This document shows, piece after piece, positions 1,614 to 58,997 of a stretch of DNA of 59,196 bases (its first letter is position 1; each line of letters begins with the position of its first letter). The translations under genes and the position numbers were made by a program. A model generated the notes under the pieces. The model worked only from the letters and a program-made list of their open reading frames with translations, was not told the origin of the DNA and made no database searches. The DNA is taken from contig JANWXI010000004.1 in assembly GCA_025057415.1 (NCBI GenBank), forward strand, positions 1-59,196. The letters are read 5' to 3'. Origin of the DNA: Chitinophagales bacterium (GTDB lineage: Bacteria > Bacteroidota > Bacteroidia > Chitinophagales > LD1).

Positions 1614-2768
1614 ATGTACTTGTTTTACATCAGACCCACTAATACCCCTCCCGTGCGTCCAGAAGATACATGGTTGCTGTACGGATGTTATGGCTATACA
1701 GGAGAGTTGATTGCAAGGCACGCCGTAGAGTGTGGCATGCGTCCTACTTTGGCGGGGCGCGATGCAAACCGCGTGGCAAAACTTGCAGGGGAGTTAAATT
1801 TGCCCTACCTCGTTTTTCCGTTAAATGATGCCGATGCAATAGCCGAGCGCATAGCGGGTTTCAAATGTGTATTGCATTGTGCCGGCCCGTTTATTCACAC
1901 TGCACCGCCTATGCTCCGGGCTTGCCTCAAAAGCAAAGTGCACTACCTTGATATAACCGGAGAGTACCAGATATTTGAAGACGTGTTTGCGCTGGATAAA
2001 CAAGCCCGCGATGCGGGCATTATGCTCCTGCCCGGTGTGGGCTTTGATGTGGTTCCTTCAGATTGTCTGGCAGCTCACCTCAAAGATGCTCTTCCGTCAG
2101 CGCTGATGCTGGAGTTGGTAATCATGAGCTTGGGAGGTGGCATTTCGCGCGGTACAGCGCTCACCATTGTTGAAAACCTCGGCATGGGTACCGTCATCCG
2201 CCGGCGCGGTAAACTCCGCACCGTGGAGCAAGGCGAAATAACCCGTGCTATTGAATACAATAAAAAGTCCTATAATGCCGTGGCCATCACCTGGGGCGAT
2301 GTATCCACTGCCTATCGCTCCACATCCATTCCCAATATCACAGTTTACAGCGTACTGCCTCCGCGCGTCATACGCACATTAAAACTTAGCAACTTTATCA
2401 ATTTTGTCCTTCGTTCGGCATGGTTCAAAAAGCTCCTCCGCACTCGCATTACTTCGCGCCCGCCCGGCCCCGATGCCAACAAGCGCCAAAGCGCCCGCTC
2501 AGCCATTTGGGGCGAGGTATCTAACAACCTCGGCATCACCAAACAAATGCTGCTCACCCTGCCCGAAGGTTACACCCTCACTTACCTCACAGCCGTTGCC
2601 ATCGTAAACGAAGTCCTCAAAGGCAACTTCATAACCGGTGCGCAAACCCCCTCGCTGGTTTACGGCAAAGATTTCATCCTCCGCTTCAAAGGCGTACAAT
2701 TAGAAGACCTCTCACAAAACTTCCAAAAACCCCTCACAAGCGCAAAAGCTGTTTCGCGCTCTTCATAA
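1614..2768 (+). CDS. Saccharopine dehydrogenase-like NAD(P)-dependent oxidoreductase
   Basis: LYGCYGYTG Rossmann motif, LAGR, HCAGPF, HYLDITGE, GFDVVPSD. Start codon uncertain. Confidence 0.85.
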   Translation: MYLFYIRPTNTPPVRPEDTWLLYGCYGYTGELIARHAVECGMRPTLAGRDANRVAKLAGELNLPYLVFPLNDADAIAERIAGFKCVLHCAGPFIHTAPPMLRACLKSKVHYLDITGEYQIFEDVFALDKQARDAGIMLLPGVGFDVVPSDCLAAHLKDALPSALMLELVIMSLGGGISRGTALTIVENLGMGTVIRRRGKLRTVEQGEITRAIEYNKKSYNAVAITWGDVSTAYRSTSIPNITVYSVLPPRVIRTLKLSNFINFVLRSAWFKKLLRTRITSRPPGPDANKRQSARSAIWGEVSNNLGITKQMLLTLPEGYTLTYLTAVAIVNEVLKGNFITGAQTPSLVYGKDFILRFKGVQLEDLSQNFQKPLTSAKAVSRSS

Positions 2769-2796
2769 ATTACATTTTTTTACAATATAGTTCTTT

Positions 2797-2959
2797 GGGG
2801 GTGCCCCCTGCTGCGTTGCGCTCGTACCTCGCGCAGGCAGCAGGGGTCGGGCTTGCTACGGGGTGCGCTGTCGCTCCCGCCGCGCCCGCACTTTGGTTGT
2901 TTTTCAACGGTGCGGGCGCGGCCGCTTCGCTGCGCTCGCGCCCTACGCATCCCTCACCC
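2797..2959 (-). repeat. Structured dispersed repeat, copy 2
   Basis: Reverse-complement match to copy 1 (GGGGGTGCCCCC...CATCCCTCACCC), 28 bp after the stop codon at 2768. Confidence 0.95.
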
Positions 2960-3255
2960 GGCTGGCGCACCCAGGGTACACACCTGTCTTCGCATCACTT
3001 CACACGCTACACAACACATTCTTCATTTACCTGTTTGATTATCGATTTAACAATTCATCTCCACATTTACGCATCGTTCAGTACCGGTCAGGCGCAATGT
3101 GCCACCTGTCCGGTACCCTTTTGATCACATATCTACTTTATACCCATTGTAAATCATCCTCTAATCTCACCCTTATGTCACACCACTTACCACGCATCTC
3201 AGGCGGGTTAGGCGCCTAATACACACACTTCTAAAACAAATAATGAAAAGGAGTT

Positions 3256-3285
3256 TTTGTTTTCTGCCATTAAAAACTACTTTTG
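3256..3285 (+). promoter_or_regulatory. Bacteroidota sigma-A promoter of rpsL operon (-33 TTTG / -7 TACTTTTG)
   Basis: TTTG 3256-3259, 18-bp spacer, TAnnTTTG 3278-3285, 22 bp before the rpsL ATG. Confidence 0.7.
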
Positions 3286-3307
3286 CCGTCCCAAAAAACA
3301 AAAGTGG

Positions 3308-3709
3308 ATGCCTACTATTCAGCAATTAGTGCGTAAATCGCGCGAAATCATACGGGCAAAATCCAAGAGCCGCGCTCTGGATGCCTGCCCCCAAAAGCGG
3401 GGCGTTTGTACGCGCGTTTACACCACTACGCCCAAGAAACCCAACTCTGCATTGCGCAAAGTAGCGAAGGTGCGTTTAACCAATCAGGTGGAGGTAATCG
3501 CCTACATCCCGGGCGAGGGTCACAACTTGCAGGAACACTCCATCGTACTCATTCGCGGCGGTCGGGTAAAAGACCTCCCGGGTGTGCGTTACCACATTGT
3601 GCGTGGTTCGCTCGACACCGCCGGTGTAGAAAATCGCAAAAAAAGCCGTTCCAAGTACGGCACCAAACGCCCGAAAGCGGGTGCTGCTGCCGCTCCTTCT
3701 AAAAAATAA
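3308..3709 (+). CDS. rpsL: 30S ribosomal protein S12
   Basis: [10 protein letters not shown]...[11 protein letters not shown]...[15 protein letters not shown]. True start is ATG 3308, not the ORF-track start 3257. Confidence 0.99.
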
Positions 3710-3738
3710 TCACCACGAAAAATACCACATAATCATAC

Positions 3739-4206: not shown

Positions 4207-4259
4207 TTCTATATAAACCAATCATAAAAGAGGAACTGGTTCTATACAGTTGAACGAAA

Positions 4260-12573: not shown

Positions 12574-12946
12574 GTTTGCAGATTATTTGTGCGTTTAATC
12601 GGTATGATATGCTTAATATTTAACAATCATTGCCCATAGCCAGATTATATGAAAGAGAAATTGTATATTACGCATTTAAAGGCAACACATTCTGGCGAAA
12701 TCTATTCCTGAGGGTACAAAAGGGATTTTGTATCAGATGTATGTTCGCGGAGTTTATTTTCCTTCCTTTGAAGCAGCCGCTCAGTTACCCCGGTTAAATT
12801 TGCACTCCTGATGTATCCTGATTATCTGGAAAGAGTTTATGTGATAAGAGAGCATTGAAGTATCAGGACAGTAGTTAACGGTTAAGAGCTTATTGTGAAG
12901 TAGTCGTATCTGGGGGTTTTGTTGAATTTGTGTGATGTACCGCGAA

Positions 12947-12977
12947 TGCGCGCCTGCGCCTGCGGCGCAGGCGCGCA
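12947..12977. repeat. Perfect 14-bp GC-rich hairpin with 3-nt loop
   Basis: TGCGCGCCTGCGCC-TGC-GGCGCAGGCGCGCA, 70 bp from repeat copy 3. Confidence 0.8.
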
Positions 12978-13046
12978 GAAGAGTAGAATTGTGACAAGAG
13001 ACAGTATTGGTCAAATGACCTTACGCCCTTCTGCTCCTCTTCAATC

Positions 13047-13208
13047 GGGTGAGGGATGCGTAGGGCGCGAGCGCAGCGAAGCGGCCGCGCCCGCACCATT
13101 GAAAAGACAAGCAATGCGCGGGCGCGGCGGGAGCGAAAGCGTACCCCGTAGCCAGCCCGACCCCGCTGCTGCGCGTAGCTCTGCGGAGCGCAGCAGCGGG
13201 GGCACCCC
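13047..13208 (+). repeat. Structured dispersed repeat, copy 3
   Basis: GGGTGAGGGATGCGTAGGGCGCG...GGGGGCACCCC, in a divergent intergenic region. Confidence 0.95.
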
Positions 13209-13371
13209 ATCATAATAATGATTTAAATTTTTATAGTCGTTTAGTTATGTTATTTTATCGGAGTGTATTTTGCGTAAGCGATATAACCCGATTAATGGCG
13301 TACATGGAATTCTTTCGGGGTGTTTATGCGCAAGTTTCAATCCTTCTATTTTAGCGCGCAATCGTAGAACT

Positions 13372-23631: not shown

Positions 23632-24153
23632 ATGCAGGCGCCCACTCACATATTGGCAGGCAGTGTCATACAGGAATTATGCAAAACCCGTCGCTTTCCC
23701 CTCCTCACTTATTTCCTCACGGCAGTTTTCGGTTTCTTCTCACACGGCTTGTTAGACAAACTCGCCATCACCACTTACCATCCGCCCCGTGCCGATTTTT
23801 CTGACGCCTTCTGGATATCATACCACGTGGGCGTGCTGCTGGCAACCATCGTTGCCGTATATGTGTATGGCGCCCGTTACGGCTGGGGCATCATATTTGC
23901 AGTTCTCCCCGATGTGGACTGGATACTCATCCACGGGCAGCGGCTAACCGGCATCTCGCTGCCATTTTACCAAACACCACATATACATAATTTTTTAAAT
24001 GCGTTTTTTGATACAGTTGCCGCGCCCTTATCTGCGCTACCCGATTACCGCCATTACCCCTGGGCAGGCATTTTTGAAATAGCGCTCATCGCCCTGTTTA
24101 TCCTGCTCCTTCACCGCCTGCAGCGCCGCAGGCGAAACATACACTTCCGGTGA
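23632..24153 (+). CDS. Hypothetical membrane protein (His-containing TM helices)
   Basis: MQAPTHILAG, SHGLLD, LPDVDW; several hydrophobic segments, reminiscent of membrane metal-dependent hydrolases. Confidence 0.7.
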   Translation: MQAPTHILAGSVIQELCKTRRFPLLTYFLTAVFGFFSHGLLDKLAITTYHPPRADFSDAFWISYHVGVLLATIVAVYVYGARYGWGIIFAVLPDVDWILIHGQRLTGISLPFYQTPHIHNFLNAFFDTVAAPLSALPDYRHYPWAGIFEIALIALFILLLHRLQRRRRNIHFR

Positions 24154-24262
24154 TACCGCCCCGCCTGCAGGTCAGCATGTATGTCTTTACTGCATTCACC
24201 CGATGACGCACTGCAACTCTCCCTTCAAAATATATAATTTACTTATAATTTGTTTTTTATTT

Positions 24263-24414
24263 GGGGGTGCCCCCGCTGCCTGGCGATGCAAGGCAGCGGG
24301 GTCGGGCTTGCTACGGGGTGCGCTTCGCTCCCGCCACGCCCGTAGTATTATTGATATTTCAAAGGTACGGGCGTGGCCGCTTCGCTGCACTCGCGCCCTC
24401 CGCATCCCTCACCC
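24263..24414 (-). repeat. Structured dispersed repeat, copy 4 (variant)
   Basis: GGGGGTGCCCCCGCTGCC...CGCATCCCTCACCC; central stem CCACGCCCGTA/TACGGGCGTGG. Confidence 0.93.
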
Positions 24415-25249
24415 GAATGAAATAGCACACTTACCCCGTATATCGTGAGCCATGTTACTTCGGGCAGTGATGCCAACTTTTGTCACAATACTTCAGGTGG
24501 TATGTATTTTTGATATAGATTGCATGATGCTTCACTCCGTTTTAAATCATAACAGCCAGAGTTGATAAATTTTTTACCGGTAAGTTGTTTTTGGTGATAC
24601 CACTACGAAACATACCCATTAAAAAAATATAATATGTTTTAATAGCCGAAAAACTGATTTTTGCTTTGGGCGTATGGGTGCCTGCAAGTTTATTATCCAA
24701 AAACAATAGCACATACCCGGATATATAGATTAATGTTTGCTTTCTATGCACAACTGGTTGCCAAACCCGATAATGAACAGTGCATTTGCGAAATTGGTTA
24801 CAAGCTGTAAGCTGCATCAATATTAACCAACATTTAAGACCGCCGTTTATACAGTGGTCTTATTTTTATTTAGAGGTGGCAAAAAATGTTGTTGTAAACT
24901 CAGGTGTGTTGCTAAAATAGATAAAGCAAAAATCTCTGTTGTATTTACATACATTACATAAATATCATTTTTATGACCACAACATATTATTTTAAGTTTA
25001 GCGATGGTTGGTAGGTGCCTATTAAAATTTCTAAGTACCACATAAAACTCAACATACCGCCAGACACAATCCTCGACTGTACCATCAAATAAACGTGTAT
25101 GTCATTCCTGCTGGCAGATAATCACTTCAAAACACTCTACACAAAACTCCTCTGACTGCGACTATCTAATTTCTTCCTTATTTTAATACTCTATGACACG
25201 ACTTACCACAAGAACATTCAATTATTATTTTCGCCTGCTTTAAAACATA

Positions 25250-34071: not shown

Positions 34072-35646
34072 TTAGGTTGATAAGCGTTTAAATAAAGACG
34101 TAAATTTCATCACTTCGTTGAGGTTGCTTACTTTGATTTTCCCCATCATGAACATCATTTGCGGGTTGGCGCGGCCTAATTCCAAATCTTCGTAATCAGT
34201 AGCGGCGGCGCTAATTACACACGATGCTTCGCCATGAAGGCCATCCTGAACCGTTACGGAGCCGTTGAGAAGGGTTACGGTGAATTCACCGCCGGTGTTG
34301 CCGGAGAGTTTGAAGTGAAATACGGAACGATCTTCTGGCTTTACTTTATCGGTTTTGAGGCGTGCCGGTAAGCTGTAAATGATTTCGCGTGCTGTTTGGG
34401 GCTTGCCGTTTGATTGCGCGGCGGCCGGCGCCGTATGCGGTGTATCGGAAGCGGTTTGCCTGTCGGCTTCTTTCATGTTTTTGTATGCACTCTCGTAGTT
34501 AACACCGTCTATCACCATTTTGGCAATAATCTCTTTCATGATTTCGGTTGTACCGCCCACAATGGTGCCTACACGGGCATCGCGGTAGGCGCGTTCGATG
34601 GGGTATTCCTGCATGTATCCGTAACCACCGAACATTTGCAAACACTCATCGGCAATGGTTTTACCCAGCTCGGTAGCTTTCATTTTGGCGATGGAGCACT
34701 CTTTGACGGCAAATACGCCGCGTGCAAATAAATCGCAGCAGTGATAAACGTACTGCTTGGTAATTTCCAGCTCGCTGATGAGGTCTACCATGCGGTGGCG
34801 AAGCACCTGAAACTTGTTGAGAGGTTTATTGAAGGCGTGGCGTTCTCTCATGTACTGCTGCGTAACGCGGATTTTTTCTTCTGCACCGGCAACAGCCAGA
34901 ATGCCGGCTATGAGGCGCTCCAGTTGAAAACTTTCCATAATGTAAAAGAAACCCTGCCCTTCGCGGCCTACGAGATTTTGGACGGGCACTTTTACATTAT
35001 CGAAGAACAATTCGGCTGTGTCGCTGCTGCGCCAACCCATTTTTTTCAGTTTGGTTTTGGTGAAGCCGGGCAAGCCCTGGTCCACCACAATCAAACTGAT
35101 GCCGGCAACACCGGCATCGGGGTCGGTTTTGCAGGCAACGGTGACAAAGTTGCCATAGTAGCCGTTGGTGATGAAGGTTTTGTTGCCATTGAGGATGTAG
35201 TAGTCACCCTCGCGGCGTGCCGTACAGCGGAGGTTGGCAACATCGCTGCCCGCTCCGGGCTCGCTGATGGCTATACTGCCCACGTATTCGCCCTTTACGG
35301 AGGGTACAAGGTATTTTTGTTTCAGGTATTCGCTGCCTGCCAACAGAATATGGTTGGTGGCCATGTATTGGTGAACACTCACGGCAGCCGCCAGGCCGGC
35401 AAAGCCGGCGCGTGCCAGCTCTTCGAGGTAAACCACTGAGTACCAAAAGTCGTTGTCGGTTCCGCCCACGCTTTCCGGGAAGTTGATGCCCAGAAAGCCG
35501 AGGTCGCCCATGCGTTTGAAAATTTGGCGGGGTATGCATTCGTTTTCTTCCCACTCGTTGATGTGGGGCACAACTTCTTTTTGCACGAAGTCGCGCACGG
35601 TTTGGCGGAAGAGTTCGTGCTCTTCGGTAAAATATCTGCTATACAT
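34072..35646 (-). CDS. Acyl-CoA dehydrogenase with C-terminal SCP2 sterol-carrier-like domain
   Basis: ISEPGAGSDV, NGNKTFITNG, QMFGGYGY, GGTTEIMKEII; linker, then FHFKLSG..GGEF...NPQMMFMMGKIKVSN. Confidence 0.92.
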   Translation of the reverse strand: MYSRYFTEEHELFRQTVRDFVQKEVVPHINEWEENECIPRQIFKRMGDLGFLGINFPESVGGTDNDFWYSVVYLEELARAGFAGLAAAVSVHQYMATNHILLAGSEYLKQKYLVPSVKGEYVGSIAISEPGAGSDVANLRCTARREGDYYILNGNKTFITNGYYGNFVTVACKTDPDAGVAGISLIVVDQGLPGFTKTKLKKMGWRSSDTAELFFDNVKVPVQNLVGREGQGFFYIMESFQLERLIAGILAVAGAEEKIRVTQQYMRERHAFNKPLNKFQVLRHRMVDLISELEITKQYVYHCCDLFARGVFAVKECSIAKMKATELGKTIADECLQMFGGYGYMQEYPIERAYRDARVGTIVGGTTEIMKEIIAKMVIDGVNYESAYKNMKEADRQTASDTPHTAPAAAQSNGKPQTAREIIYSLPARLKTDKVKPEDRSVFHFKLSGNTGGEFTVTLLNGSVTVQDGLHGEASCVISAAATDYEDLELGRANPQMMFMMGKIKVSNLNEVMKFTSLFKRLST

Positions 35647-35657
35647 GCTGGTGAGGG

Positions 35658-35930
35658 TTAGTTTTCGATGGTGGCTTGTATGCCGCGTTCTGTGATGGCG
35701 TCTTTCATGGGTTTGAGTACATCGTATGGTCCGTGTTTTACGGCATAGCGCCCTTTATAGTGCACAATGTAGGCACACTGCTCGGCCTGTTCGTAAGTAT
35801 GTTTACAGACCTCTACGAGGGTTTTGATGACCCAGTCAAATGTGTTCACTTCATCATTGTGCAGGATTAACTTTGAAGGGGTATCGGTGATTTGGTCTGT
35901 TTGTTCTTTCCACTCGGTTTGGTGTGCCAT
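35658..35930 (-). CDS. clpS: ATP-dependent Clp protease adaptor ClpS
   Basis: LILHNDEVNTFDWVI...EQAEQCAYIVHYKG. Start set at MAHQTE. Confidence 0.93.
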   Translation of the reverse strand: MAHQTEWKEQTDQITDTPSKLILHNDEVNTFDWVIKTLVEVCKHTYEQAEQCAYIVHYKGRYAVKHGPYDVLKPMKDAITERGIQATIEN

Positions 35931-36073
35931 GCGGAATGTTTTATGCGTTACGAAGGAAAAGATTTTTTCTTGAAACTTCAAACAGTTGTTTGAATTTATT
36001 GTTTGCGGCTGTCAGCGCCGCGCCGGCAAGTTGGAGCTGAGGTAGGTTAAATCATCAAGTAAAGCGCTCCATC

Positions 36074-36244
36074 GGGTGAGGGATGCGGAGGGCGCGAACC
36101 CCGCCCGCTGCAGGAGGGCGGGGTGAAGCGGCCACGCCCGTACCCTTGAATAATTAAAAACTTACGGGCGGGGCGGGAGCGAAGCGCACCCCGTAGCAAG
36201 CCCGACCCCGCTGCCTTGCAACGCTTGGCAGCGGGGGCACCCCC
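36074..36244 (+). repeat. Structured dispersed repeat, copy 5 (carries an extra 9-bp hairpin)
   Basis: GGGTGAGGGATGCGGAGGGCGCGA...GGGGGCACCCCC; ACCCCGCCC/GGGCGGGGT at 36098-36124. Confidence 0.93.
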
Positions 36245-36439
36245 TAATAAGAAAAAATGGTGAAGTGACTGGCAGGGTTGCGCGGAAAATGCCGGGGATA
36301 TTTCGTATATGGAGTTAGCAGCCGCAGCGGTGTGGGTTGAAAATATGTGGATGTTTACGTATCTGCCGGCGCAATTAAATAACAGATTAACTATTGCATA
36401 ACAAATACTATGATACATTTGCGGGATAAAGGAATAGCT

Positions 36440-38200
36440 ATGATAAGGATGCTTTACACACTCCTGCTCGTGCTGAGTACAGCGGCCGGGCATGCGCAAT
36501 GTACAGATTTGTTTTTTTCGGAATATGTAGAGGGCTCCAGTAACAACAAGGCGCTCGAGATTTACAATGCATCGGGCAGCACGATAGACCTGACGGGTTA
36601 CCGGGTGCAGTTGTATTCAAACGGGAACACCAACCCTACATCAACGTTTAATCTGAGTGGTAATTTAGCAGCGGGGGCTACGTATGTAATCTGCAACAGT
36701 TCGGCTGCAGCATATATTAAAAGTTTAGCTGATACGACTTCGGGTGTTACGAATTTTAATGGCAATGATGCTATTGTGTTGCTTAAAGGCAACGACACGC
36801 TGGATGTGATAGGGATAGTGGGTAACGACCCAGGCAGCGGTGGTTGGGCTGTTGGCACAGGCAGTACCACTGATAAAACACTGGTGCGTTCCGACACGGT
36901 GAAGCTCGGTACGAAAGATTGGAGTATAGGCGCTACGCAATGGTTGGTGTTGCCGAAAGATACCATTATGCTGAAGCAACATACCATGCAACCATGCCCG
37001 CCTTCTGTGGCTTTTGGTTTAACGAGCGATGCCGTAAACGAGAGCGCCGGCACATACTCCATATCCATTACGCTGAATACACCGGCCACTATCTCTTACA
37101 CCGTAGATGTGAAGCTGACAGGCGGTACCGGTGACGCGTCAGACATAGGCATGTTTACCGGAGCGCAGGTAACTTTTGGACCCGGGGATGTTACCAAAAC
37201 CGTTTCGATAAACATTACAGATGACAATATACAGGAACCTGCAGAGACCTTGATTTTCACGCTGCAGAATCCGTCATCGGGTTTACTGATAGGAGCTAAC
37301 GCTACGTTTACCCTTACGATTGCCGCCAGTGATGTGCCGGTGGTGAAGTACAATATTTCACAAATTACCGGGCTGGATGCCGATTTTAAACCTGACTCAC
37401 TGGGCGCTAAAGTAGTGGTAACGGGTACGGTTATCGGTATAGATTACCGCGCCAATGGGTTGGAATTTTTTATTCATGACGGAACCGATGGCATACAGGT
37501 GTTTTCGCCAAGCAATACGTTTGGCTACACGGTAAACGAGGGGGATTCGGTGCAGGTGGAAGGAGAGGTGAGTTTCTTTAACGGAGTTACGCAGATAGCG
37601 TTTTTGGATACTGTGTTTAAAGTAGGTACGGGCGCAGTGCCTGCACCCGCGGTAGTGCAGGATTTAGACGAAAACACCGAAGCGGAGCTAATACGGCTGA
37701 ACTATGTTAATTTGGTGAATCCTTCACAATGGACCGGCTCAGGCGCCAATGGGTTTAACTGCAGCATCACAGACGGGCAAAAAACCTGGACTTTGCGCAT
37801 TGATGAACAGTGTGCGTTGTATTCGCAGCCGGCGCCTCAGGGCAAGTTTCATGTCATCGGCATCGGTAGTCAATTTGATGCTACTTCGCCTTATGATGGC
37901 GGCTACCAGATTTTGCCCCGTTATGTAACGGACATCATCCTGGTAACAGGCACGGATGACATGGAAAAACTTCAGGTGAGTGTTTTCCCCAACCCCGGTC
38001 GCGACAAATTTTATCTGTTTGCTGCCACAGCCGGTGAAACGCAAGTGCTGGTTACGGACATAACCGGCAAAACAATTCATAGGAGTACTTTCTACGGAGC
38101 TCAACACACGTTGGCGCTGGAGAATGCGGCGCCCGGGTGGTATATGGTTGAATTGTTACAAAACGGCAAATACTACCGCACGAAATTGCTCGTGCAGTAA
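36440..38200 (+). CDS. T9SS type-A cargo with lamin-tail-like, Calx-beta-like and OB-fold-like domains
   Basis: Signal peptide; DLFFSEYVEGSSNNKALEIYN (ExeM-type N-domain); GDSVQVEG; YQILPR; C-terminal VFPNP...PGWYMV...KLLVQ. Confidence 0.85.
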   Translation: MIRMLYTLLLVLSTAAGHAQCTDLFFSEYVEGSSNNKALEIYNASGSTIDLTGYRVQLYSNGNTNPTSTFNLSGNLAAGATYVICNSSAAAYIKSLADTTSGVTNFNGNDAIVLLKGNDTLDVIGIVGNDPGSGGWAVGTGSTTDKTLVRSDTVKLGTKDWSIGATQWLVLPKDTIMLKQHTMQPCPPSVAFGLTSDAVNESAGTYSISITLNTPATISYTVDVKLTGGTGDASDIGMFTGAQVTFGPGDVTKTVSINITDDNIQEPAETLIFTLQNPSSGLLIGANATFTLTIAASDVPVVKYNISQITGLDADFKPDSLGAKVVVTGTVIGIDYRANGLEFFIHDGTDGIQVFSPSNTFGYTVNEGDSVQVEGEVSFFNGVTQIAFLDTVFKVGTGAVPAPAVVQDLDENTEAELIRLNYVNLVNPSQWTGSGANGFNCSITDGQKTWTLRIDEQCALYSQPAPQGKFHVIGIGSQFDATSPYDGGYQILPRYVTDIILVTGTDDMEKLQVSVFPNPGRDKFYLFAATAGETQVLVTDITGKTIHRSTFYGAQHTLALENAAPGWYMVELLQNGKYYRTKLLVQ

Positions 38201-50562: not shown

Positions 50563-50722
50563 CTGTGAACTGTAAATTTTTTAACACACCCCTTCCTGTG
50601 AGGCCAAAACCGGCGAGAACGTGCATAAAATAATACGGACATAATCTCAACAACACTGTGCCAAATCCATACATATACAACACGATAAAACTCCTACAAT
50701 AGATAACATTTTATCGTTTATC

Positions 50723-50863
50723 GGGGGGTGCCCCCCGCAGCAGCGCGCTCGTACCTCGCGCGCTGCTGCGGGGGGCGGGCGTGCTACCGGGTGCGCGTTC
50801 GCTCCCCTGCTCCACACCGTTTCGCACCGCTCCCGGTGGTCGCGCCCTCCGCATCCCTCACCC
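50723..50863 (-). repeat. Structured dispersed repeat, copy 6 (shorter variant lacking the central long hairpin)
   Basis: GGGGGGTGCCCCCC...CGCGCCCTCCGCATCCCTCACCC; 17-bp perfect stem 50731-50775. Confidence 0.9.
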
Positions 50864-51159
50864 GGAAAAAAAAGCGGTTCTTAACGGACAATCGTTTCAG
50901 AAAATCTTAGCCCGTTTTACAGGTGCATAACTGTTGAAACACAAATGTTCATGCAAAATAACGGCTACCTGATTAATTGGCATAACATTGCTAAGTACCT
51001 TTTATTTGGCGCGGATACCCCGGTAGCGCACACACGCTTAACTGCACAAGTCGGAGCGATGTTTTATGAATGATGTTATACGCTGCATCATTCCTCAATC
51101 CACATATGGCTCATAAATTGAGTAATGAGCGGGGGATGATTTGCGATGGTATTTGGCTC

Positions 51160-51522: not shown

Positions 51523-51665
51523 TTTGTTGTGATTAATAAAGTAAAGGTATGAAAACACTTTTGTTGTGGTAGGGTTGCAGGAGTTTATTTTTAGTTGATG
51601 GTGTATCAGAAAAATCGGGGGGTGCATTCAGCGGCTTGTTTGTTGGAGGTTTTGTGGAGGTTTTT

Positions 51666-51690
51666 CCGCGCCGCGCGAAGCGCGGCGCGG
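51666..51690. repeat. Perfect 11-bp hairpin with GAA triloop
   Basis: CCGCGCCGCGC-GAA-GCGCGGCGCGG, 150 bp from repeat copy 7. Confidence 0.8.
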
Positions 51691-51840
51691 GAATGTTAAG
51701 GTGAGGCGGGTGTGGTTATTTTCTGTGCGCGCCCGGTGGCATCCCCTTGTCATATTATATTTATTCTTTATACGAATCATTGCCCTGCCAACTCACCTGT
51801 GCTGCTTTGCGCAACACAAGGGCCGCCGGAGCGATTGCTT

Positions 51841-52002
51841 GGGTGAGGGATGCGTAGGGCGCGAGCGCAGCGAAGCGGCCGCGCCTGTACCGTTGAAAAA
51901 CAAACAACGCACGGGCGCGGCGGGAGCGGCAGCGTACCCCGCAGCAAGCCCGACCCCGCTGCTGCGCGTAGCTACGCGAAGCGCAACAGCGGGGGCACCC
52001 CC
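51841..52002 (+). repeat. Structured dispersed repeat, copy 7
   Basis: Near-identical to copies 1 and 3. Confidence 0.95.
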
Positions 52003-52117
52003 AATAATTAAAAAATAAACATATATAAAATATTGTGCATTTATTAACGCGAAACCCGCAATGCGTTTTGCGCTGCGGGGTGAGCGGGGCGCGGGTTGTT
52101 GAAAACTTTTGGGCGAT

Positions 52118-54217
52118 TTACCAATGGAGCAGTTCGTCAATTGCCTGGCGGACGAGTTCGGCATTTGGGAGCATGGCACGTTCTAAATCTTCATTGAGCG
52201 GAATGGCGGGTGTGTTTACGGCTCCGATGATTTTTACCGGTGCATCGAGGTGTGTGAAGTGTGCAGATGCGATGCGACCTGCCAGCGCTTCGGCAAAGGA
52301 GTGTGTGACGGTTTCTTCGGTGATTACGATGACTTTGCCGTGGCGGGTTACGGCTTCGGCTATTGTGGTTTCATCGAGCGGGTTGAGTGAGCGCAGGTCT
52401 ATGATTTCTACGCGGCCGGGGAAATTTTTTGCGGCATTCCACGCCCAGTGCACCCCCATGCCGTAGGTGATGATGCAGAGGGTTTCTCCATTGGCGGTGT
52501 GTTGCGGTGATGCAGCGAGGGCGATGCGCGCTTTGCCGAGGGGTACTACGTAATGTTCGTCCGGCTCGATGGTTTTGGCGTTTTCGGTGCCTTTCACTTT
52601 GCTCCAGTAGAGGCCTTTGTGTTCAAATATCACTACTGGGTTTGGGTCGAGGAAGGCGGCTTTCATCAGTCCTTTCATGTCGGCAGCGTTGCTGGGGTAA
52701 GCTACTTTTACACCTTTAATTTGCAGTACGAAACTTTCAACGGAGGAGGAGTGGTAAGGTCCTCCGCTTCCGTATGCGCCAATGGGTACGCGAATGAGCG
52801 ATTGAATCGGCCATTTGCCGTTGCTCAGGTAACAAGAGCGCGACACTTCGGTAAAAAGTTGGTTGATGCCGGGAAAGATGTAGTCGGCAAACTGTATTTC
52901 TACGATGGGTTTGCAACCCACCGCGCTCATGCCTACTGTGGAACCGATAATGTACGCCTCCATGATGGGCGTGTTGAACACACGCTTATCGCCATATTTT
53001 TTGGCGAGGAGTGCTGCCTCGCGAAACACACCGCCAAGTTCACCACCCACATCCTGCCCGTAGAGCAGTGCCTCGGGGTATTGGCGCAGAATTTCGTCCA
53101 CGGCATGCAGCGCAGCATCTACCATCACTACGGTTTGCCCGCCCTTGGGTTCGCGCTCTCCTTTTTCTTCAGTTACGGGAGTAGGTACAAAGATGTGTTG
53201 CGTAAGTTGCGAAACATCGGGCGAGGGCTGCTGCAGGGCGCGTTCAAAATCGCTGTGCACCTTTTCGCGGGCTTCGCGCTCTATCTCGTCTAACTGATGC
53301 GCAGGGGCGATTTTGCCGTACAACAGATATTTTTTGAACCTGGTGTATGGGTCGCGCATCGCATCGCTCTCTAAGTTTTCTTTAGAGCGGTACCACTCTT
53401 TACGCACACCCGAAGTGTGATGGTTGAGTAAGGGCACTTTGGCGTGCACCAGGTAAGGCGCGCGGTGAGTGCGCACGTAGTTGACTACCCGGCTGAGGGT
53501 TTCGTAACACTCTGCAAAGTCAGTGCCGTCAATGCTTTCTACTTTCAAGCCCTTAAAACCTTTTGCATATTCAGATGCATCCTGCGCGCGTATTTCGCGG
53601 GCGTGAGCGCTGATGTCCCACTCATTATCCTGCACCAGATATATGATAGGATACTGGTGTAACACTGCCATCTGAAATGCCTCGCTCACTTCCCCTTCGG
53701 TAATGGCGCCATCGCCCAGCGAGCACAACACGATAGGGGCTTCGCCCTTTTTGTATTCCGCAAGCGACATTTCCTCTTTGTATCGCAACCCCTGAGCAGC
53801 TCCGGTGGCAGGAATTACCTGCATGCCTGTGGCAGAACTCTGGTGAGGTATTTTGGGACGGTCGGGCAGGGTGCTGGATGGGTGTGCATAATACGTACGC
53901 CCGCCCGAAAAGTAATCGGTGCCTTTTGCCAAAAGCTGCAACATCAAATCATAAGGCGTAAAACCCATGCCTAACAGCATGGCATCATCGCGGTAGTACG
54001 GAAAGGCGTAATCGTAAGGTTTTAACTGAAAAGCCGCTGCTAACTGAATGGCCTCGTGCCCCCGCGAGGTAGCGTGTACGTATTTCTGCGTAATGTCTTT
54101 GCGCGCCTCATATAATTCCGCCATGGCTTTGGCGGTACACATGAGGCGGTAGGCGTGTAGCAAAACGTCGGTGGTGGGCTTCACAGAAGGCAAATAAACG
54201 ATTTGCCGGTAAAACAA
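52118..54217 (-). CDS. 2-oxoacid (branched-chain-type) dehydrogenase E1, fused alpha/beta subunits
   Basis: GHEAIQ, YYRD, GDGAITEGE...DN TPP motif; beta part GQDVG..GGVFR, FNTPI.E, EIQFADY, FEHKGLY. Start uncertain. Confidence 0.93.
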   Translation of the reverse strand: MFYRQIVYLPSVKPTTDVLLHAYRLMCTAKAMAELYEARKDITQKYVHATSRGHEAIQLAAAFQLKPYDYAFPYYRDDAMLLGMGFTPYDLMLQLLAKGTDYFSGGRTYYAHPSSTLPDRPKIPHQSSATGMQVIPATGAAQGLRYKEEMSLAEYKKGEAPIVLCSLGDGAITEGEVSEAFQMAVLHQYPIIYLVQDNEWDISAHAREIRAQDASEYAKGFKGLKVESIDGTDFAECYETLSRVVNYVRTHRAPYLVHAKVPLLNHHTSGVRKEWYRSKENLESDAMRDPYTRFKKYLLYGKIAPAHQLDEIEREAREKVHSDFERALQQPSPDVSQLTQHIFVPTPVTEEKGEREPKGGQTVVMVDAALHAVDEILRQYPEALLYGQDVGGELGGVFREAALLAKKYGDKRVFNTPIMEAYIIGSTVGMSAVGCKPIVEIQFADYIFPGINQLFTEVSRSCYLSNGKWPIQSLIRVPIGAYGSGGPYHSSSVESFVLQIKGVKVAYPSNAADMKGLMKAAFLDPNPVVIFEHKGLYWSKVKGTENAKTIEPDEHYVVPLGKARIALAASPQHTANGETLCIITYGMGVHWAWNAAKNFPGRVEIIDLRSLNPLDETTIAEAVTRHGKVIVITEETVTHSFAEALAGRIASAHFTHLDAPVKIIGAVNTPAIPLNEDLERAMLPNAELVRQAIDELLHW

Positions 54218-56299: not shown

Positions 56300-56315
56300 G
56301 CCACCCTGAAACAGA

Positions 56316-56341: not shown

Positions 56342-56363
56342 GGTAAAGTAATGTAGAGTGCGA

Positions 56364-57002
56364 TTATTTCTTTTTCTCTTCGGGTTTCGCAGCAGCAGGA
56401 GCAGGGGCGGCAGGTGCAGCGGCAGCCGGAGCAGCGGCGGCCTCTTCTTTAGCGGCGCGCGGCACACTCACCCGGGCTATCGGATTAGCGCCCGATAACA
56501 GAAAAGTGAGGTTAGGATAAAATGCCTGCAAATCGCGCACGCGGCTGATGGCGCCCAGGTCCATGCCAGATACGTCAAACTCCAGATAACTCACCAGGTC
56601 TTTGGGCAGCGCTACCACCTGCAGGCGTCTTACTACCTGCTCCAGTTTACCCCCTGCCGAGGCGCCCTTGGGGGTGCCTTTCAGGCGCAGCGGAATGCTC
56701 ACCTTTACTTTTACATCTTCGCGCAGTTCCTGAAAATCAGCATGCAGCATGGTGTCTTTCACCGGCTCAAACTGCGTTTCTTTCAAAATAGCGCGGTGTA
56801 CCTGACCATTAAGATGAATTTCCGCCACCCGCAGTTCGGGCGTGTAAATCAGTTTGCGGAATTCGTGCAGCGGAGCGTAAAAGTTGTAATTCTTATCGCC
56901 CCCGTACAAATTGCAAGGAACGTTACCTGCCTTGCGCAGGGCACGCGTAGCCTTTTTGCCTAATTCGGTTCTTGGCGTGCCGTGAAGAATGGTTGTTTCC
57001 AT
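56364..57002 (-). CDS. rplY: 50S ribosomal protein L25 / Ctc
   Basis: GKKATRALR..G.VP.NLYG, HADF, C-terminal Ctc domain and Ala-rich tail. Confidence 0.96.
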   Translation of the reverse strand: METTILHGTPRTELGKKATRALRKAGNVPCNLYGGDKNYNFYAPLHEFRKLIYTPELRVAEIHLNGQVHRAILKETQFEPVKDTMLHADFQELREDVKVKVSIPLRLKGTPKGASAGGKLEQVVRRLQVVALPKDLVSYLEFDVSGMDLGAISRVRDLQAFYPNLTFLLSGANPIARVSVPRAAKEEAAAAPAAAAPAAPAPAAAKPEEKKK

Positions 57003-57050
57003 GATGTTGATGGGTTTTTATGAATAAAAAATTTTATATATAAAATAATT

Positions 57051-57995
57051 TTAAACCGATGGCGTAAGGAAAAGCGAGTTGATGCTTTTGTGTTCGTGCG
57101 TGTTGCGTATGGCCTGTGCAAACAGCTTGGCAACGCTAAGCACCTTAATCTTAGGCGAGTTTTTGGGCGGCAGGGTGTTGGTGACAATCAGCTCACTGAG
57201 TTGACTTTTCTCTACGTTTTCCACAGCTTTACCCGAAAGCACGGCGTGCGTACATATTGCCCGCACACTCCGGGCGCCTTTCTCCATCAGCAGGTTGGCA
57301 GCGCTGCAGAGTGTGCCGCCGGTGTCAATCATATCGTCACACAAAATTACGTTTTTGCCTTCCACGTTGCCGATAAGCGTCATTTCGGCAACTTCGTTCA
57401 CACGCTTGCGGTATTTGTCACATATTACCATGTCGGCATTAAAGTGCTGCGCATAGATGCGCGCGCGCTTCACAGAGCCCACGTCGGGCGAGGCAAAACA
57501 CAAATTGTCTAAGTTGAGTTTCTGAATGTACGGCAAGAAGATGGCAGAGCCGTTCAGGTGGTCCACCGGAATATCAAAAAAGCCCTGAATTTGCCCGGCA
57601 TGCAGGTCCATCGTCATCACGCGGTTAGCGCCCGCAGCGGTGAGCAGGTTAGCGATTAGCTTGGCTGCAATACCCACCCGGGGGCGGTCTTTGCGGTCCT
57701 GCCGGGCATACCCAAAATACGGAATAACTGCCGTAATGTAATCGGCCGATGCCCGTTTGGCTGCGTCAATCATCATGAGCAGCTCCATCAGATTATCGGT
57801 AGGAGCGGGCGTGCTTTGAATAATAAACACAAAGGCCCCGCGCACACTCTCTTTAATCTCGGGTTGAAATTCCCCATCGCTGAAACGAAGTACATCAATT
57901 TGAGCGAGCTGCTGCCCATAAATATCGGCAATGTCTTCGGCCAGGTATCGCGTCAATGTGCCTGTAAATAACTTAACATCGCTGGTGAGCAACAT
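57051..57995 (-). CDS. prs: Ribose-phosphate pyrophosphokinase
   Basis: FSDGE, PYFGYARQDRK, DLHAGQIQGFF, DDMIDTGGT. Start set at MLLTS because a TATATTTG promoter element lies at 58023-58016. Confidence 0.97.
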   Translation of the reverse strand: MLLTSDVKLFTGTLTRYLAEDIADIYGQQLAQIDVLRFSDGEFQPEIKESVRGAFVFIIQSTPAPTDNLMELLMMIDAAKRASADYITAVIPYFGYARQDRKDRPRVGIAAKLIANLLTAAGANRVMTMDLHAGQIQGFFDIPVDHLNGSAIFLPYIQKLNLDNLCFASPDVGSVKRARIYAQHFNADMVICDKYRKRVNEVAEMTLIGNVEGKNVILCDDMIDTGGTLCSAANLLMEKGARSVRAICTHAVLSGKAVENVEKSQLSELIVTNTLPPKNSPKIKVLSVAKLFAQAIRNTHEHKSINSLFLTPSV

Positions 57996-58118
57996 AGCCC
58001 GCAATTTTGGGGGCACAAATATAACCTTATTGTTGAGAACTAATACCCGATTTACAAACCTTTGTCACCTTACAACGCCCGCGATTTAATTTATTTGCCG
58101 CCTGCAACTTCACACCAC

Positions 58119-58997
58119 ATGCTATTACTGGACGGCAAAAAGCTATCCGAAGAGATAAAAGCCGAAATTAAAACTCAAGTAGAGAAACGCCTGCTTACCG
58201 GCAAAAGCGCCCCCCACCTGGCGGCTATACTGGTGGGCAACGATGGAGGCAGCTTAACTTACGTGGGGCACAAAGTAAAGGCGTGCGAGCAGGTAGGGTT
58301 TCGCTCCACATTGTTGCACTTTCAGGAAAACATCACTCAGGATGCGCTCCTGAAGGAAATTGAACGCCTCAATGCCGACAATACCGTGCACGGCTTCATC
58401 GTGCAACTCCCCCTGCCCGCTCACATCGATGCCACCCGCGTTTTGTTGCACATCCACCCTTCCAAAGATGTGGACGGTTTTCACCCCGTAAACGTGGGGC
58501 GCATCACATTGGGCATGCCCGGCTTCGTATCGGCAACTCCTCTCGGCATCACCAGGTTGCTTGAGCGCTACGCCATTCAAACCGCCGGCAAACACTGCGT
58601 CATTATCGGCCGCAGCAACATCGTAGGTCGCCCCCTAAGCATCCTGCTGAGCAGCCAGAGCGCCACCGGCAATGCCACCGTCACCCTTTGCCACTCCCGC
58701 ACCCAAAACCTCGCATCCATCACCCGCCAGGCCGACATCCTCATCGCGGCCCTCGGCAAACCCGAGTTCCTCACTGCCAACATGGTAAAAGAAGGCGCCG
58801 TAGTCATTGACGTAGGCACTACCCGCGTACCCGACCCAAGCGCCAAAACCGGCTGGCGCCTCAAAGGAGACGTAAAATTTGACGAGGTAGCCCCAAAATG
58901 CTCAGCCATCACGCCCGTTCCCGGCGGCGTAGGTCCCATGACCGTCGTATCGCTCCTGCTCAACACCCTGCAGGCAGCGCAGCAAGCCGACCCTTAA
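58119..58997 (+). CDS. folD: Bifunctional methylene-THF dehydrogenase/cyclohydrolase
   Basis: LLDGK, VQLPLP, KDVDGFHP.N, GRSNIVGRP, TPVPGGVGPMT. Confidence 0.98.
   Translation: MLLLDGKKLSEEIKAEIKTQVEKRLLTGKSAPHLAAILVGNDGGSLTYVGHKVKACEQVGFRSTLLHFQENITQDALLKEIERLNADNTVHGFIVQLPLPAHIDATRVLLHIHPSKDVDGFHPVNVGRITLGMPGFVSATPLGITRLLERYAIQTAGKHCVIIGRSNIVGRPLSILLSSQSATGNATVTLCHSRTQNLASITRQADILIAALGKPEFLTANMVKEGAVVIDVGTTRVPDPSAKTGWRLKGDVKFDEVAPKCSAITPVPGGVGPMTVVSLLLNTLQAAQQADP

What the first reader, a model, noticed from the sequence alone, without database searches (positions are those of the whole stretch)
2521..58800. Local G/C strand skew halos whose sign follows each element's orientation, even inside genes
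Seen (approximate hand counts on the + strand). Near minus-oriented copies the + strand is C-rich: 2521-2760 C83/G38; 3001-3240 C74/G29; 23641-23760 C37/G20; 50581-50700 C34/G15; 58621-58800 C76/G38. Near plus-oriented copies it is G-rich: 12841-12940 G31/C8; 36251-36360 G40/C13; 51541-51660 G42/C9; 52141-52260 G41/C22. The effect is on both sides of copies 2 and 7. It flips within about 1 kb between copies 6 and 7, and within one gene (1681-1800 G41/C23 versus its C-rich 3' end). Copy 1's flank (181-300, G29/C28) is not skewed. Established: a strand that spends time single-stranded accumulates C>T and A>G and becomes G/T-rich. Inference: the strand reading GGGTGAGG...CACCCC is repeatedly exposed as ssDNA, or asymmetrically copied or repaired, for several hundred bp around each element. 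This would be the mutational footprint of a site-specific unwinding, nicking or priming system, and is the best candidate here for an undescribed system.
Basis: partly seen in the sequence, partly recalled or inferred. Interest (0 to 1): 0.92.

Follow-up and report, generated by a model that had tools for sequence, protein, structure and literature searches.

The report
Strand-skew halos around a structured repeat
Each of about 250 copies of a folded 165-base repeat in this hot-spring bacterium sits in a 1-3 kb zone where silent sites of neighbouring genes have drifted towards G on the repeat's own strand, a local mutation footprint of a kind I could not find described for bacteria.

Summary
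All 11 hand counts are exact. The repeat has 8 copies in the window and 259 hits in the 3.2-Mb genome.

- **Size and reach.** GC skew on the element strand is +0.15 to +0.20 next to the element and about 0 by 2-3 kb. It is positive in 209 of 244 downstream and 155 of 193 upstream 500-nt flanks.
- **Not a gene-strand effect.** It is the same for genes on either strand and sits at silent sites. Fourfold-site G is 0.45 against 0.29 expected.
- **Direction of change.** Twofold sites show A>G and C>T on the element strand.
- **Controls.** tRNA genes and ordinary genes give no halo.
- **Lineage-specific.** Orthologous sites in five congeners without the element lack it.
- **Grows with age.** Younger-looking copies have weaker halos.
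- **Replicated.** A second genus shows the same signature.

The element has a covarying, strand-specific fold and matches no Rfam family.

Best reading: a substitution bias that builds up after insertion, started at the element and running mainly 3' of it. The machinery is unknown.

The parts
8..172 (+). element copy 1 (at the contig start)
   Evidence: covariance model R1, 163.7 bits; nhmmer
173..672 (+). copy 1 downstream flank, skew on the element strand +0.03 (no halo)
   Evidence: fourfold sites +0.02
2796..2961 (-). element copy 2
   Evidence: R1 157.0 bits
2297..2796 (-). copy 2 downstream halo inside the 3' end of the + strand gene 1614-2768; skew on the element strand +0.34
   Evidence: fourfold-site skew +0.52 in G000 against +0.32 in one relative
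2961..3460 (-). copy 2 upstream halo (mostly intergenic), skew +0.28
12768..13044 (+). repeated mosaic module upstream of copy 3 (GC-rich hairpins with G/T-rich spacers), shared with other copies
   Evidence: same-orientation similarity to other upstream flanks reaches 278 nt; alignment
13045..13210 (+). element copy 3
   Evidence: R1 177.9 bits
13210..13709 (+). copy 3 downstream flank, all-base skew +0.22, but fourfold sites of gene 13270-15042 show no halo (-0.18)
24262..24416 (-). element copy 4
   Evidence: R1 171.4 bits
23763..24262 (-). copy 4 downstream halo, skew +0.22 (upstream flank 24417-24916: -0.03)
36072..36245 (+). element copy 5 (extra hairpin inserted after the 5' motif)
   Evidence: R1 151.1 bits; alignment A1
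35572..36745 (+). copy 5 halo, upstream +0.18 and downstream +0.19; fourfold sites downstream +0.49 against -0.38 in relatives
50724..50865 (-). element copy 6 (variant with a short inner hairpin)
   Evidence: R1 85.2 bits
50224..50723 (-). copy 6 downstream flank, all-base skew +0.14; fourfold sites show no halo (-0.40; relatives -0.52)
51708..51838 (+). repeated module directly upstream of copy 7
   Evidence: 131 nt similar to other upstream flanks
51839..52003 (+). element copy 7, 975 nt from copy 6 and divergent from it
   Evidence: R1 173.6 bits
51339..52502 (+). copy 7 halo, upstream +0.21 and downstream +0.23; fourfold sites of the - strand gene 52118-54217 +0.51 against +0.11 in relatives
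59073..59196 (-). element copy 8, its 5' part cut off by the contig end
   Evidence: R1 58.9 bits, model positions 44-165
58574..59073 (-). copy 8 downstream halo inside the 3' end of the + strand gene 58062-58997, skew +0.26; fourfold sites +0.61 against +0.24 in relatives

Best explanation
The halo is a real substitution bias that builds up after a copy is in place. It is started at the repeat and acts on one strand.

The repeat is a ~165-nt GC-rich element. Its fold works only on the strand reading GGGTGAGGGATGCG...GGGGCACCCC, because it keeps G.U/G.T pairs. It is followed by an A-rich tail.

Around each copy the silent sites of unrelated neighbouring genes, on either coding strand, have moved towards G on that strand. 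The changes are A>G, C>T and pyrimidine>G. They are strongest next to the 3' end, halve by about 0.8-1 kb and fade by 2-3 kb. The 5' side shows about 40% of that strength.

Inferred mechanism (not shown): the folded element repeatedly starts a process that runs 5'>3' along its own strand. That process leaves the strand single-stranded or has it re-synthesised. Candidates are a nick- or structure-primed strand displacement (D-loop-like), which I favour, or an R-loop. At hot-spring temperature this would give deamination of A and C plus G-favouring fill-in. About a fifth of the genome lies within 1.5 kb of a copy.
For: **Shown**
- Distance decay on both sides, with the 3' side stronger than the 5' side.
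- The sign follows the element strand in 209 of 244 downstream and 155 of 193 upstream flanks.
- The effect is at silent sites. Third-position skew shifts by +0.31 to +0.37, while positions 1 and 2 move by -0.03 to +0.12.
- Fourfold-site G is 0.449 against 0.286 expected at 1-200 nt. The excess falls through .153.128.105.087.065.053 to .038 by 3 kb.
- The effect is the same for genes on either strand and in every neighbour context.
- No single k-mer carries it.
- Twofold sites, downstream 1-300 nt:
  - G/(G+A) is 0.506 against 0.356 expected in same-strand genes, and 0.685 against 0.474 in opposite-strand genes.
  - C/(C+T) is 0.349 against 0.474, and 0.252 against 0.356.
- Flanks beyond about 150 nt downstream and about 450 nt upstream are unique sequence.
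- 41 tRNA genes and all genes of 900 nt or more give no halo.
- At orthologous fourfold sites, five congeners without the element have skew +0.06 (expected +0.05) where G000 has +0.40 at 0-400 nt, and -0.05 against +0.18 at 400-800 nt.
- Copies closest to the consensus have half the halo: 0.146 against about 0.29 (Spearman -0.23, p 0.003).
- Copies whose long upstream module is still recognisable have 0.04-0.14 against 0.30-0.32.
- The halo does not depend on the contig's background, replication-type skew: 0.27 co-oriented against 0.30 anti-oriented.
- Of 143 peaks of residual skew above 0.4, 80 lie within 1.5 kb of an element, and 77 of those have the right sign. Only 20.7% of windows lie that close.
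- A second genus gives the same signature on 25 copies.
- The fold is strand-specific and covarying: 94.6% of cells paired against 82.9% when shuffled, 20 pairs with changes on both sides, and conserved G.U pairs.
- A second assembly of the source run, at about 9x, agrees with the sequence.
Against: - No enzyme, nick, ssDNA or transcript has been seen, and no RNA run is listed.
- T is not enriched at fourfold sites and purines rise by 0.09. Simple single-strand deamination therefore does not suffice.
- C>T fades faster than A>G. As recalled, this is not the shape reported for mitochondrial strand-displacement gradients.
- Amino-acid divergence from relatives is not raised in the halo (ratio 0.99-1.12 against 0.94-0.98 further out). 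This is a slow bias and not hypermutation, and weak selection on composition would look the same.
- Copies differ widely (sd 0.225 against 0.124 from sampling). Three of the window's copies have no halo at fourfold sites.
- 44 of the 143 skew peaks lie away from any detected element or contig end.
- Substitutions could not be polarised, because relatives are only 66-78% identical in DNA over the matches and too few sites were informative.
- Gene calls come from my own simple caller, and the genome is a 196-contig draft.
Confidence: 0.55

Rival explanations
1. Sense transcription through the element. A transcript containing the element reads on for about 1 kb regardless of what lies downstream. 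The non-template strand, which is the element strand, is exposed, perhaps in R-loops favoured by G-rich RNA, and gathers transcription-associated changes.
For: - The polarity is 5'>3' on the element strand, and A>G and C>T fall on that strand.
- The GC-rich covarying fold with G.U pairs is what a structured RNA of a thermophile would look like.
- The mosaic spacers are G/T-rich and C-poor. From general knowledge, such RNA would resist Rho.
Against: - No promoter-like motif sits at a fixed place upstream of 148 full copies. The consensus TTTG / TAnnTTTG used for this was recalled, not taken from a call.
- The upstream gene points away from the element in 108 of 169 cases.
- The halo is the same whether the upstream gene points in or away: 0.30 against 0.27.
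- The 41 tRNA genes leave no halo.
- The halo also exists upstream of the element.
Confidence: 0.2
2. Selection, not mutation. G-richness of the element strand, or C-richness of the other strand, is needed for the element's function. Examples would be binding of a strand-specific protein, or keeping flanking sequence from pairing with the fold. Silent sites are where it can be accommodated.
For: - The change is a net gain of G from all three other bases in every context. This looks more like a compositional target than one chemical lesion.
- Protein divergence is not accelerated.
Against: - A reach of 2-3 kb with smooth decay is hard to link to any function of a 165-nt element.
- No specific word is enriched beyond composition.
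- Halos are weaker at young copies. That fits slow accumulation. It could also fit slow adaptation.
- About a fifth of the genome would be under such selection.
Confidence: 0.12
3. Insertion preference. The element inserts, in a fixed orientation, into places that were already G-rich on one strand.
For: - The youngest-looking copies still have a positive mean halo of 0.146.
- Skew peaks without an element exist: 44 of 143.
Against: - The mean flank lies more than one sd above the genome's window distribution, and the peak is centred on the element with polar decay.
- Orthologous sites in relatives have no skew.
- Older-looking copies have about twice the halo.
- No background process that would make such patches was seen around tRNA genes or ordinary genes.
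Confidence: 0.06
4. Artefact of sequencing, assembly or my analysis. One example would be direction-specific G over-calling after GC-rich hairpins.
For: - Two loci of other draft genomes hold poly-G/poly-C runs inside the element.
- The second genome's records carry coverage of about 2-3 in their titles.
Against: - The effect is at silent codon positions and leaves reading frames intact.
- It reaches 10 or more read lengths.
- Logan contigs of the source run, at about 9x, match the window with 0-2 differences over pieces of up to 6.3 kb.
- The raw all-base profile needs no gene calls.
Confidence: 0.02

Closest known systems
REP/BIME (REPIN) elements with RAYT transposases
   Same: Abundant, GC-rich, hairpin-forming intergenic repeats that act on one strand. 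They occur as mosaics with other hairpin modules, and neighbouring copies are often inverted.
   Different: - The unit here is about 165 nt with a multi-helix fold, not a 20-40 nt palindrome.
- No Y1 transposase above cut-off was found.
- No kb-scale compositional halo is known to me for REPs. This was not tested here.
Replication-associated GC skew (leading against lagging strand)
   Same: G>C at silent sites, attributed to asymmetric exposure or copying of one strand.
   Different: - Replication skew is chromosome-wide and changes sign only at origin and terminus.
- This one is local (1-3 kb) and changes sign with each copy's orientation, about every 10 kb.
- It is independent of the contig's background skew.
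- It is several times stronger: residual +0.27 against a contig-level sd of 0.07.
Strand-displacement gradients of vertebrate mitochondrial DNA (recalled from the literature, not read here)
   Same: A>G and C>T on the strand that is displaced and left single-stranded, graded with distance from a fixed start.
   Different: - One start per small genome there, against about 250 chromosomal sites here.
- Here T is not gained at fourfold sites, purines rise, and C>T fades faster than A>G.
Transcription-associated strand asymmetry and R-loop-linked GC skew (bacterial genes; eukaryotic CpG-island promoters; recalled)
   Same: The non-template strand becomes G-rich downstream of a fixed point.
   Different: Here the sign ignores the direction of the genes affected, no promoter was found, and a halo also lies upstream.
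Single-strand initiation / primosome assembly hairpins of plasmids and phages (recalled)
   Same: Folded elements of about 100-150 nt that work on one strand only and start DNA synthesis in one direction.
   Different: Those are single sites on small replicons with no known mutational footprint. No sequence relation was tested, and the halo here does not depend on the inferred replication direction.
Diversity-generating retroelements
   Same: Localised, directional mutagenesis beside a structured element.
   Different: DGRs change adenines only, within about 100-150 bp of a target gene, and need a template repeat and a dedicated reverse transcriptase. Here all bases move towards G over kilobases. 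The only reverse transcriptases found are an AbiP2-type in G000 and a retron-type fragment in G346, unrelated to each other.

Membership tests
REP/BIME-RAYT | a cognate Y1 (IS200-like) transposase gene in the genome | tested here: not met
   PF01797 in G000: one match of 20.8 bits, below the 23-bit cut-off, in a 60-aa frame. The genome is 94% complete, so absence is not proven.
REP/BIME-RAYT | a short (20-40 nt) imperfect palindrome with a conserved 5' tetranucleotide | tested here: not met
   The unit is about 165 nt with 5 helices and 43 pairs. A GTAG word occurs inside it, but not at the start of a simple palindrome.
IS200/IS605 TnpB guide-RNA (omega/reRNA) derived repeats | a TnpB/Cas12f-like nuclease gene in the genome | tested here: not met
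   PF07282: 0 matches in G000 and G346.
IS110/IS1111 bridge or seek RNA | a DEDD IS110 recombinase gene | tested here: not met
   PF01548: 0 matches in G000 and G346.
MITE (non-autonomous DNA transposon) | terminal inverted repeats and target-site duplications | tested here: inconclusive
   Only GGGTG...CACCC (5 nt) pair at the ends, as helix 1. The flank profiles show a C before the element and an A-rich tail after it, with no evident duplication. No empty sites were available for comparison.
Any described RNA family (Rfam 15) | a match at the family's gathering score | tested here: not met
   0 matches in the whole window at gathering thresholds. Only chance-level matches (E 0.066 or worse) appeared in 12550-13300.
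Structured RNA or ssDNA element in general | a conserved secondary structure with compensatory changes | tested here: met
   34 copies from two genera: 94.6% of cells paired against 82.9% shuffled (0 of 500 shuffles as high). 20 of 43 pairs have changes on both sides. The alignment was fitted to the model, which favours it.
Replication-associated skew | sign set by replication direction and constant over a replichore | tested here: not met
   The sign follows each copy, and neighbouring copies are oppositely oriented in 89 of 114 pairs. The halo is equal for copies with and against the contig's background skew.
Transcription- or gene-strand-associated skew | sign follows the coding strand | tested here: not met
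   The genome-wide coding-strand skew is -0.009. The halo has the same sign and size in genes on either strand.
Diversity-generating retroelement | adenine-specific changes and a DGR-type reverse transcriptase with template repeat | tested here: not met
   A, C and T all fall (obs/exp 0.74, 0.79, 0.87). The reverse transcriptases are AbiP2-type and retron-type.

The most novel reading that the evidence does not exclude
A dedicated, undescribed chromosomal system in which a folded ~165-nt repeat is the loading site for a nicking, priming or unwinding activity. That activity opens or re-copies about 1 kb of DNA in one direction at some 250 sites. It leaves mitochondria-like strand gradients that reshape the codon usage of about a fifth of the genome, and the system spreads between genera by horizontal transfer.
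Probability: 0.3. Interest if true: 0.95.

Novelty: categorically new. Interest (0 to 1): 0.88.

Why it matters
If the halo is a mutational footprint, it is the first case I know of in which a dispersed bacterial repeat sets the local mutation spectrum of its neighbourhood over kilobases.

- It would show that strand asymmetry in bacteria can be set locally as well as by replication and transcription.
- About 20% of this genome lies within 1.5 kb of a copy. Codon usage, amino-acid composition, origin prediction from skew and composition-based calls of foreign DNA are therefore all affected.
- It gives a sequence-only way to find DNA that is habitually opened, nicked or re-copied in uncultured organisms.
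- It points to a structure-specific activity that could be looked for at the bench.
- If the cause is selection instead, it would reveal an unknown long-range requirement of a repeat family.

Tried and rejected
**Known-family and driver searches**
- Rfam at gathering thresholds and at E<=10 found nothing.
- No tRNA genes lie in the window.
- Driver enzymes: Y1 transposase was sub-threshold only; TnpB and IS110 were not found in G000 or G346.
- The reverse transcriptases found are defence types unrelated to each other. I dropped them as drivers.

**Alternative sources of the skew**
- Gene strand is rejected as the cause.
- Repeated flanks account only for about 150 nt downstream and about 450 nt upstream.
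- No single polar motif carries the skew.
- A fixed Bacteroidetes-type promoter was not seen. The consensus was recalled.
- Dependence on replication direction was not seen.
- Neighbouring opposite-oriented copies show only a weak negative correlation (rho -0.26, p 0.036). Overlapping tails could explain it.

**Tests without enough power**
- Amino-acid divergence in halos is not raised.
- Polarising substitutions with sites where three or more relatives agree gave only 31 and 32 sites.
- Truncated internal copies: the 9 lacking the 5' part have a downstream halo of 0.349. Only 1 copy lacking the 3' part had data.

**Sequencing runs and other collections**
- Only the source hot-springs DNA run holds the stretch, and no RNA holder is listed.
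- Laying it gave contigs only. They confirm the sequence but cannot show variants, starts or strands. One 'skip' joint between the 5' ends of copies 6 and 7 has a 23-letter side, and I take it for a repeat effect.
- Metagenome scans gave 0 hits for the 5' motif and 1 distant hit of 29 bits for an inner motif.

**Literature**
- Five searches listed nothing on element-centred skew halos.
- I saw only the listings and the starts of abstracts, and read no paper. No supplements were consulted.
- The statement that the phenomenon is not in print rests on these five searches only.

Full report
**What the window is.** The window is one whole contig (C141) of a 3.22-Mb, 196-contig draft genome with 47% G+C. 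The only public run that holds it is a hot-springs metagenome. Records of the only other genome with the same repeat are titled Chitinophagales.

**The element.**
- The word GGGTGAGG occurs 6 times against 0.77 expected. It marks a ~165-nt GC-rich repeat.
- A covariance model finds 8 copies in the window: 8-172 +, 2796-2961 -, 13045-13210 +, 24262-24416 -, 36072-36245 +, 50724-50865 -, 51839-52003 + and 59073-59196 -. The last is cut by the contig end.
- A profile of the 8 copies finds 259 hits in the genome, 140 on + and 119 on -. Of these, 54 lie within 30 nt of a contig end and 198 are near full length. None lies inside a called gene.
- The fold has two long-range closing helices, an inner hairpin with a variable tip and a 3' hairpin. 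On 34 copies from two genera, 94.6% of cells pair against 82.9% in shuffles (0 of 500 shuffles as high).
- 20 of 43 pairs show changes on both sides, including 13 of 14 in the 3' hairpin. Three pairs are kept mostly or always as G.U, so the fold exists only on the strand that reads GGGTG...CACCCC. The alignment was fitted to the model, which favours it.
- The core is followed by an A-rich tail, with 50-84% A over about 12 positions.
- Many copies carry further repeated modules of GC-rich hairpins with G/T-rich spacers.
  - About 80-90 of 196 upstream flanks resemble another flank within 150 nt. This falls to about 20 by 350-400 nt.
  - About 60 of 246 downstream flanks do so within 100 nt, and almost none beyond 200 nt.
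- No Rfam family matches.

**The observation.** With fixed 500-nt flanks, 12 of 14 in the window are G-rich on the element strand, with mean +0.168. None of 20000 random draws reached that value.

**Genome-wide test.** I called genes with a simple self-trained caller, which gave 2276 genes covering 86.6% of the genome.
- The coding strand as such has almost no skew: -0.009 overall, with +0.21, -0.13 and -0.14 at positions 1, 2 and 3. Gene direction therefore cannot make halos.
- The oriented profile peaks at the element and decays on both sides.
  - Over all bases it runs +0.18, +0.14, +0.14, +0.12 and +0.13 in the first five 100-nt bins downstream. It is +0.08 at 1 kb, +0.03 at 2 kb and 0.00 at 3 kb.
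  - Coding bases on the same and on the opposite strand give alike values.
- Per copy, 209 of 244 downstream and 155 of 193 upstream flanks are positive.

**Where the change sits.** It sits at silent sites.
- Third-position skew downstream 1-300 nt is +0.235 in same-strand genes (expected -0.14) and +0.449 in opposite-strand genes (expected +0.14). Positions 1 and 2 move by -0.03 to +0.12.
- At fourfold sites 1-200 nt downstream, the element strand has A .154, C .206, G .449, T .191. The expectation is .224, .271, .286, .219.
- The G excess falls from .164 to .087 by 0.8-1 kb and to .038 at 2-3 kb. The upstream excess is .080 to .018.
- The gain of G holds in every neighbour context and for both gene strands. 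No single word carries it.
- Twofold sites, where only transitions are silent, show A>G and C>T on the element strand. A>G reaches 3 kb. C>T is gone by about 1 kb.
But at fourfold sites T does not rise and purines rise by 0.09, so changes of pyrimidines to G must also occur.

**Controls.**
- 41 tRNA genes and all genes of 900 nt or more, treated like elements, give residual skews within about 0.01-0.06 of zero. One tRNA bin reached 0.11.
- Of 143 peaks of residual fourfold skew above 0.4, 80 lie within 1.5 kb of an element and 77 of those have the expected sign. A further 19 lie near contig ends and 44 are orphans. Only 20.7% of windows lie that close to an element.
- Sequencing error is unlikely. 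The effect respects codon position, reaches far beyond a read, and an independent assembly of the source run at about 9x agrees with the window.

**Is it caused by the element, or was it there before?**
- The element was not found by DNA similarity in 18 congeners and 12 genomes of other families.
- Its 24-nt 5' motif, allowing one mismatch, occurs in 2 of 401 genomes sampled from the order. G000 has 171 hits. G346 has 39 and belongs to another genus of the same family. None was found in 33 congeners.
- Congeners are only 66-78% identical in DNA over the matches, so silent sites are saturated. I could still compare composition at aligned fourfold sites of 27 orthologous pieces from five congeners.
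  - At 0-400 nt downstream of the window's copies, G000 has skew +0.40. The relatives have +0.06, with +0.05 expected from gene strand.
  - At 400-800 nt the values are +0.18 against -0.05.
  - The halo is thus specific to the element-bearing lineage.
- Copies differ in strength: sd 0.225 against 0.124 expected from sampling.
  - Copies nearest the consensus have half the halo, 0.146 against about 0.29 (Spearman -0.23, p 0.003).
  - Copies whose long upstream module is still recognisable have 0.04-0.14 against 0.30-0.32.
  - Both results fit a footprint that grows with residence time and speak against insertion into pre-skewed DNA.
- In the window, copies 2, 5, 7 and 8 have strong fourfold-site halos (+0.49 to +0.61). 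Copies 1, 3 and 6 have none.

**Replication in a second genome.**
- On 25 copies fetched from G346 (42% G+C), all-base skew on the element strand is +0.09 to +0.14 within 1 kb and about 0 at 2-3 kb downstream. All 14 flanks at 600-1000 nt downstream are positive.
- With genes called on those loci, fourfold G is 0.312 against 0.211 expected at 0-400 nt. It then falls through 0.285, 0.255 and 0.243 to 0.200.
- That genome's records carry low coverage figures in their titles. The codon-position argument applies there too.

**What process?**
- The halo is independent of the contig's background skew, my proxy for replication direction: 0.27 co-oriented against 0.30 anti-oriented, with 39 copies co-oriented and 32 anti.
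- It is independent of the orientation of neighbouring genes.
- No promoter-like motif sits at a fixed place.
- No Y1 transposase above cut-off, TnpB or IS110 gene was found. The two reverse transcriptases are unrelated defence types.
- Protein divergence is not raised in the halo, so this is a slow directional bias.
- Three features point to an event that starts at the folded element and runs 5'>3' along its own strand: the polarity (the 3' side is stronger), the strand-specific fold, and A>G plus C>T on that strand. Such an event would leave the strand single-stranded or re-synthesise it.
  - I favour a DNA-level version, meaning nick- or structure-primed strand displacement.
  - I rank it above an R-loop version because no promoter or dependence on read-in transcription was seen.
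  - This step is inference.
- The extra gain of G from pyrimidines is unexplained. Insertion of C opposite damaged bases, or incorporation of oxidised dGTP during re-synthesis, would give it. Both are speculation from general knowledge.

**Spread.**
- A 781-nt stretch is 93% identical between G000 (contig C49) and G346 (L041). Ordinary orthologues between these genomes are about 70-72% identical.
- The stretch holds an element, its upstream region and the first 158 codons of a divergent gene. The 158 residues are identical between the two genomes.
- The gene has a weak match to type IIG restriction-methyltransferases (12.8 bits, E 0.0047). NCBIfam gave nothing.
- Together with the patchy distribution, this suggests horizontal transfer between the two lineages. 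Mis-binning of a contig cannot be fully excluded.

**Comparison with what is known.**
- The element resembles REP/BIME-type repeats in abundance, hairpins and mosaic build. It fails their defining features (size, RAYT).
- The halo resembles replication skew and the strand-displacement gradients of mitochondrial DNA in direction. The mitochondrial comparison is recalled, not read. The halo is local, anchored to a repeat, independent of replication direction, and includes a purine gain.
- Five literature searches listed nothing similar. I saw listings only.
- I therefore rate the halo as a new kind of feature. The caveat is that its mechanism is inferred.

**Limits.**
- The genome is a draft and the gene calls are my own.
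- There are no expression, ssDNA or polymorphism data.
- Relatives are too distant to polarise changes.
- The second genome has low coverage.

Noticed in passing
whole genome; window copies 1-8: Successive copies on a contig alternate in orientation: +- 57, -+ 32, ++ 14 and -- 11, so 89 of 114 pairs are opposite (binomial p 1.3e-9). The 8 window copies alternate perfectly. Possible causes are selection against direct repeats, or intramolecular replicative transposition with inversion. Neither was tested.
   Followed up: partly
contig ends genome-wide; window 1-8 and 59196: Contigs tend to break at the conserved 5' part of the element. 90 of 259 copies have no gene between their 5' end and the contig end (median 39 nt to the end), against 16 on the 3' side. 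The true copy number and the neighbour relations are therefore uncertain.
   Followed up: partly
window 12768-13044, 51628-51838; many other loci: Two kinds of repeated upstream module occur. One is an AT-rich unit of about 400 nt, seen in 4-5 copies (C177, C82, C84, C169, partly C49). The other is a mosaic of GC-rich hairpins with G/T-rich spacers. The start of the mosaic module also occurs just downstream of some cores. The full unit may be 600-700 nt long.
   Followed up: partly
G000 C49:5493-6305 (L107) and L041:1-779: A 781-nt stretch is shared at 93% DNA identity between two genera, with identity at all 158 residues. It holds an element and the start of a gene with a weak type IIG restriction-methyltransferase match. 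Both contigs end at the same point inside the gene.
   Followed up: partly
G000 C119, L104:1066-2604 (+): A 512-aa reverse transcriptase of the AbiP2 defence type (PADLOC E 3.6e-210). G346 has a retron-type reverse transcriptase fragment on a contig of about 1.1 kb (L105).
   Followed up: partly
window 29884-33822 (-) and 30001-36000: The + strand is G-rich (+0.08 to +0.19 per kb) across a 1312-aa minus-strand ORF with internal repeats (family D10) and the next gene. This lies 0.1-6 kb upstream of copy 5, wider than the usual upstream halo.
   Followed up: no
16 loci, e.g. C111:2400-4400, C112:15600-17200, C28:3600-5000: Strong fourfold-site skew peaks (residual above 0.45) lie more than 2.5 kb from any detected element or contig end. 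Several sit beside 300-700-nt intergenic gaps. They could mark lost or divergent elements.
   Followed up: no
L031:6310-6470, L051:1235-1330: Long poly-G then poly-C runs replace the body of the element in two records of other draft genomes. They are probably assembly artefacts of low-coverage data.
   Followed up: no
L106:294-422 (-): A single distant relative of the element (29 bits with model R1) lies on a 4954-nt metagenome contig. It shows no clear skew around it.
   Followed up: partly
window 26912-27021: Short tandem-like repeats rich in GAG/GAC (family D15) lie in an ORF that would encode an acidic stretch.
   Followed up: no
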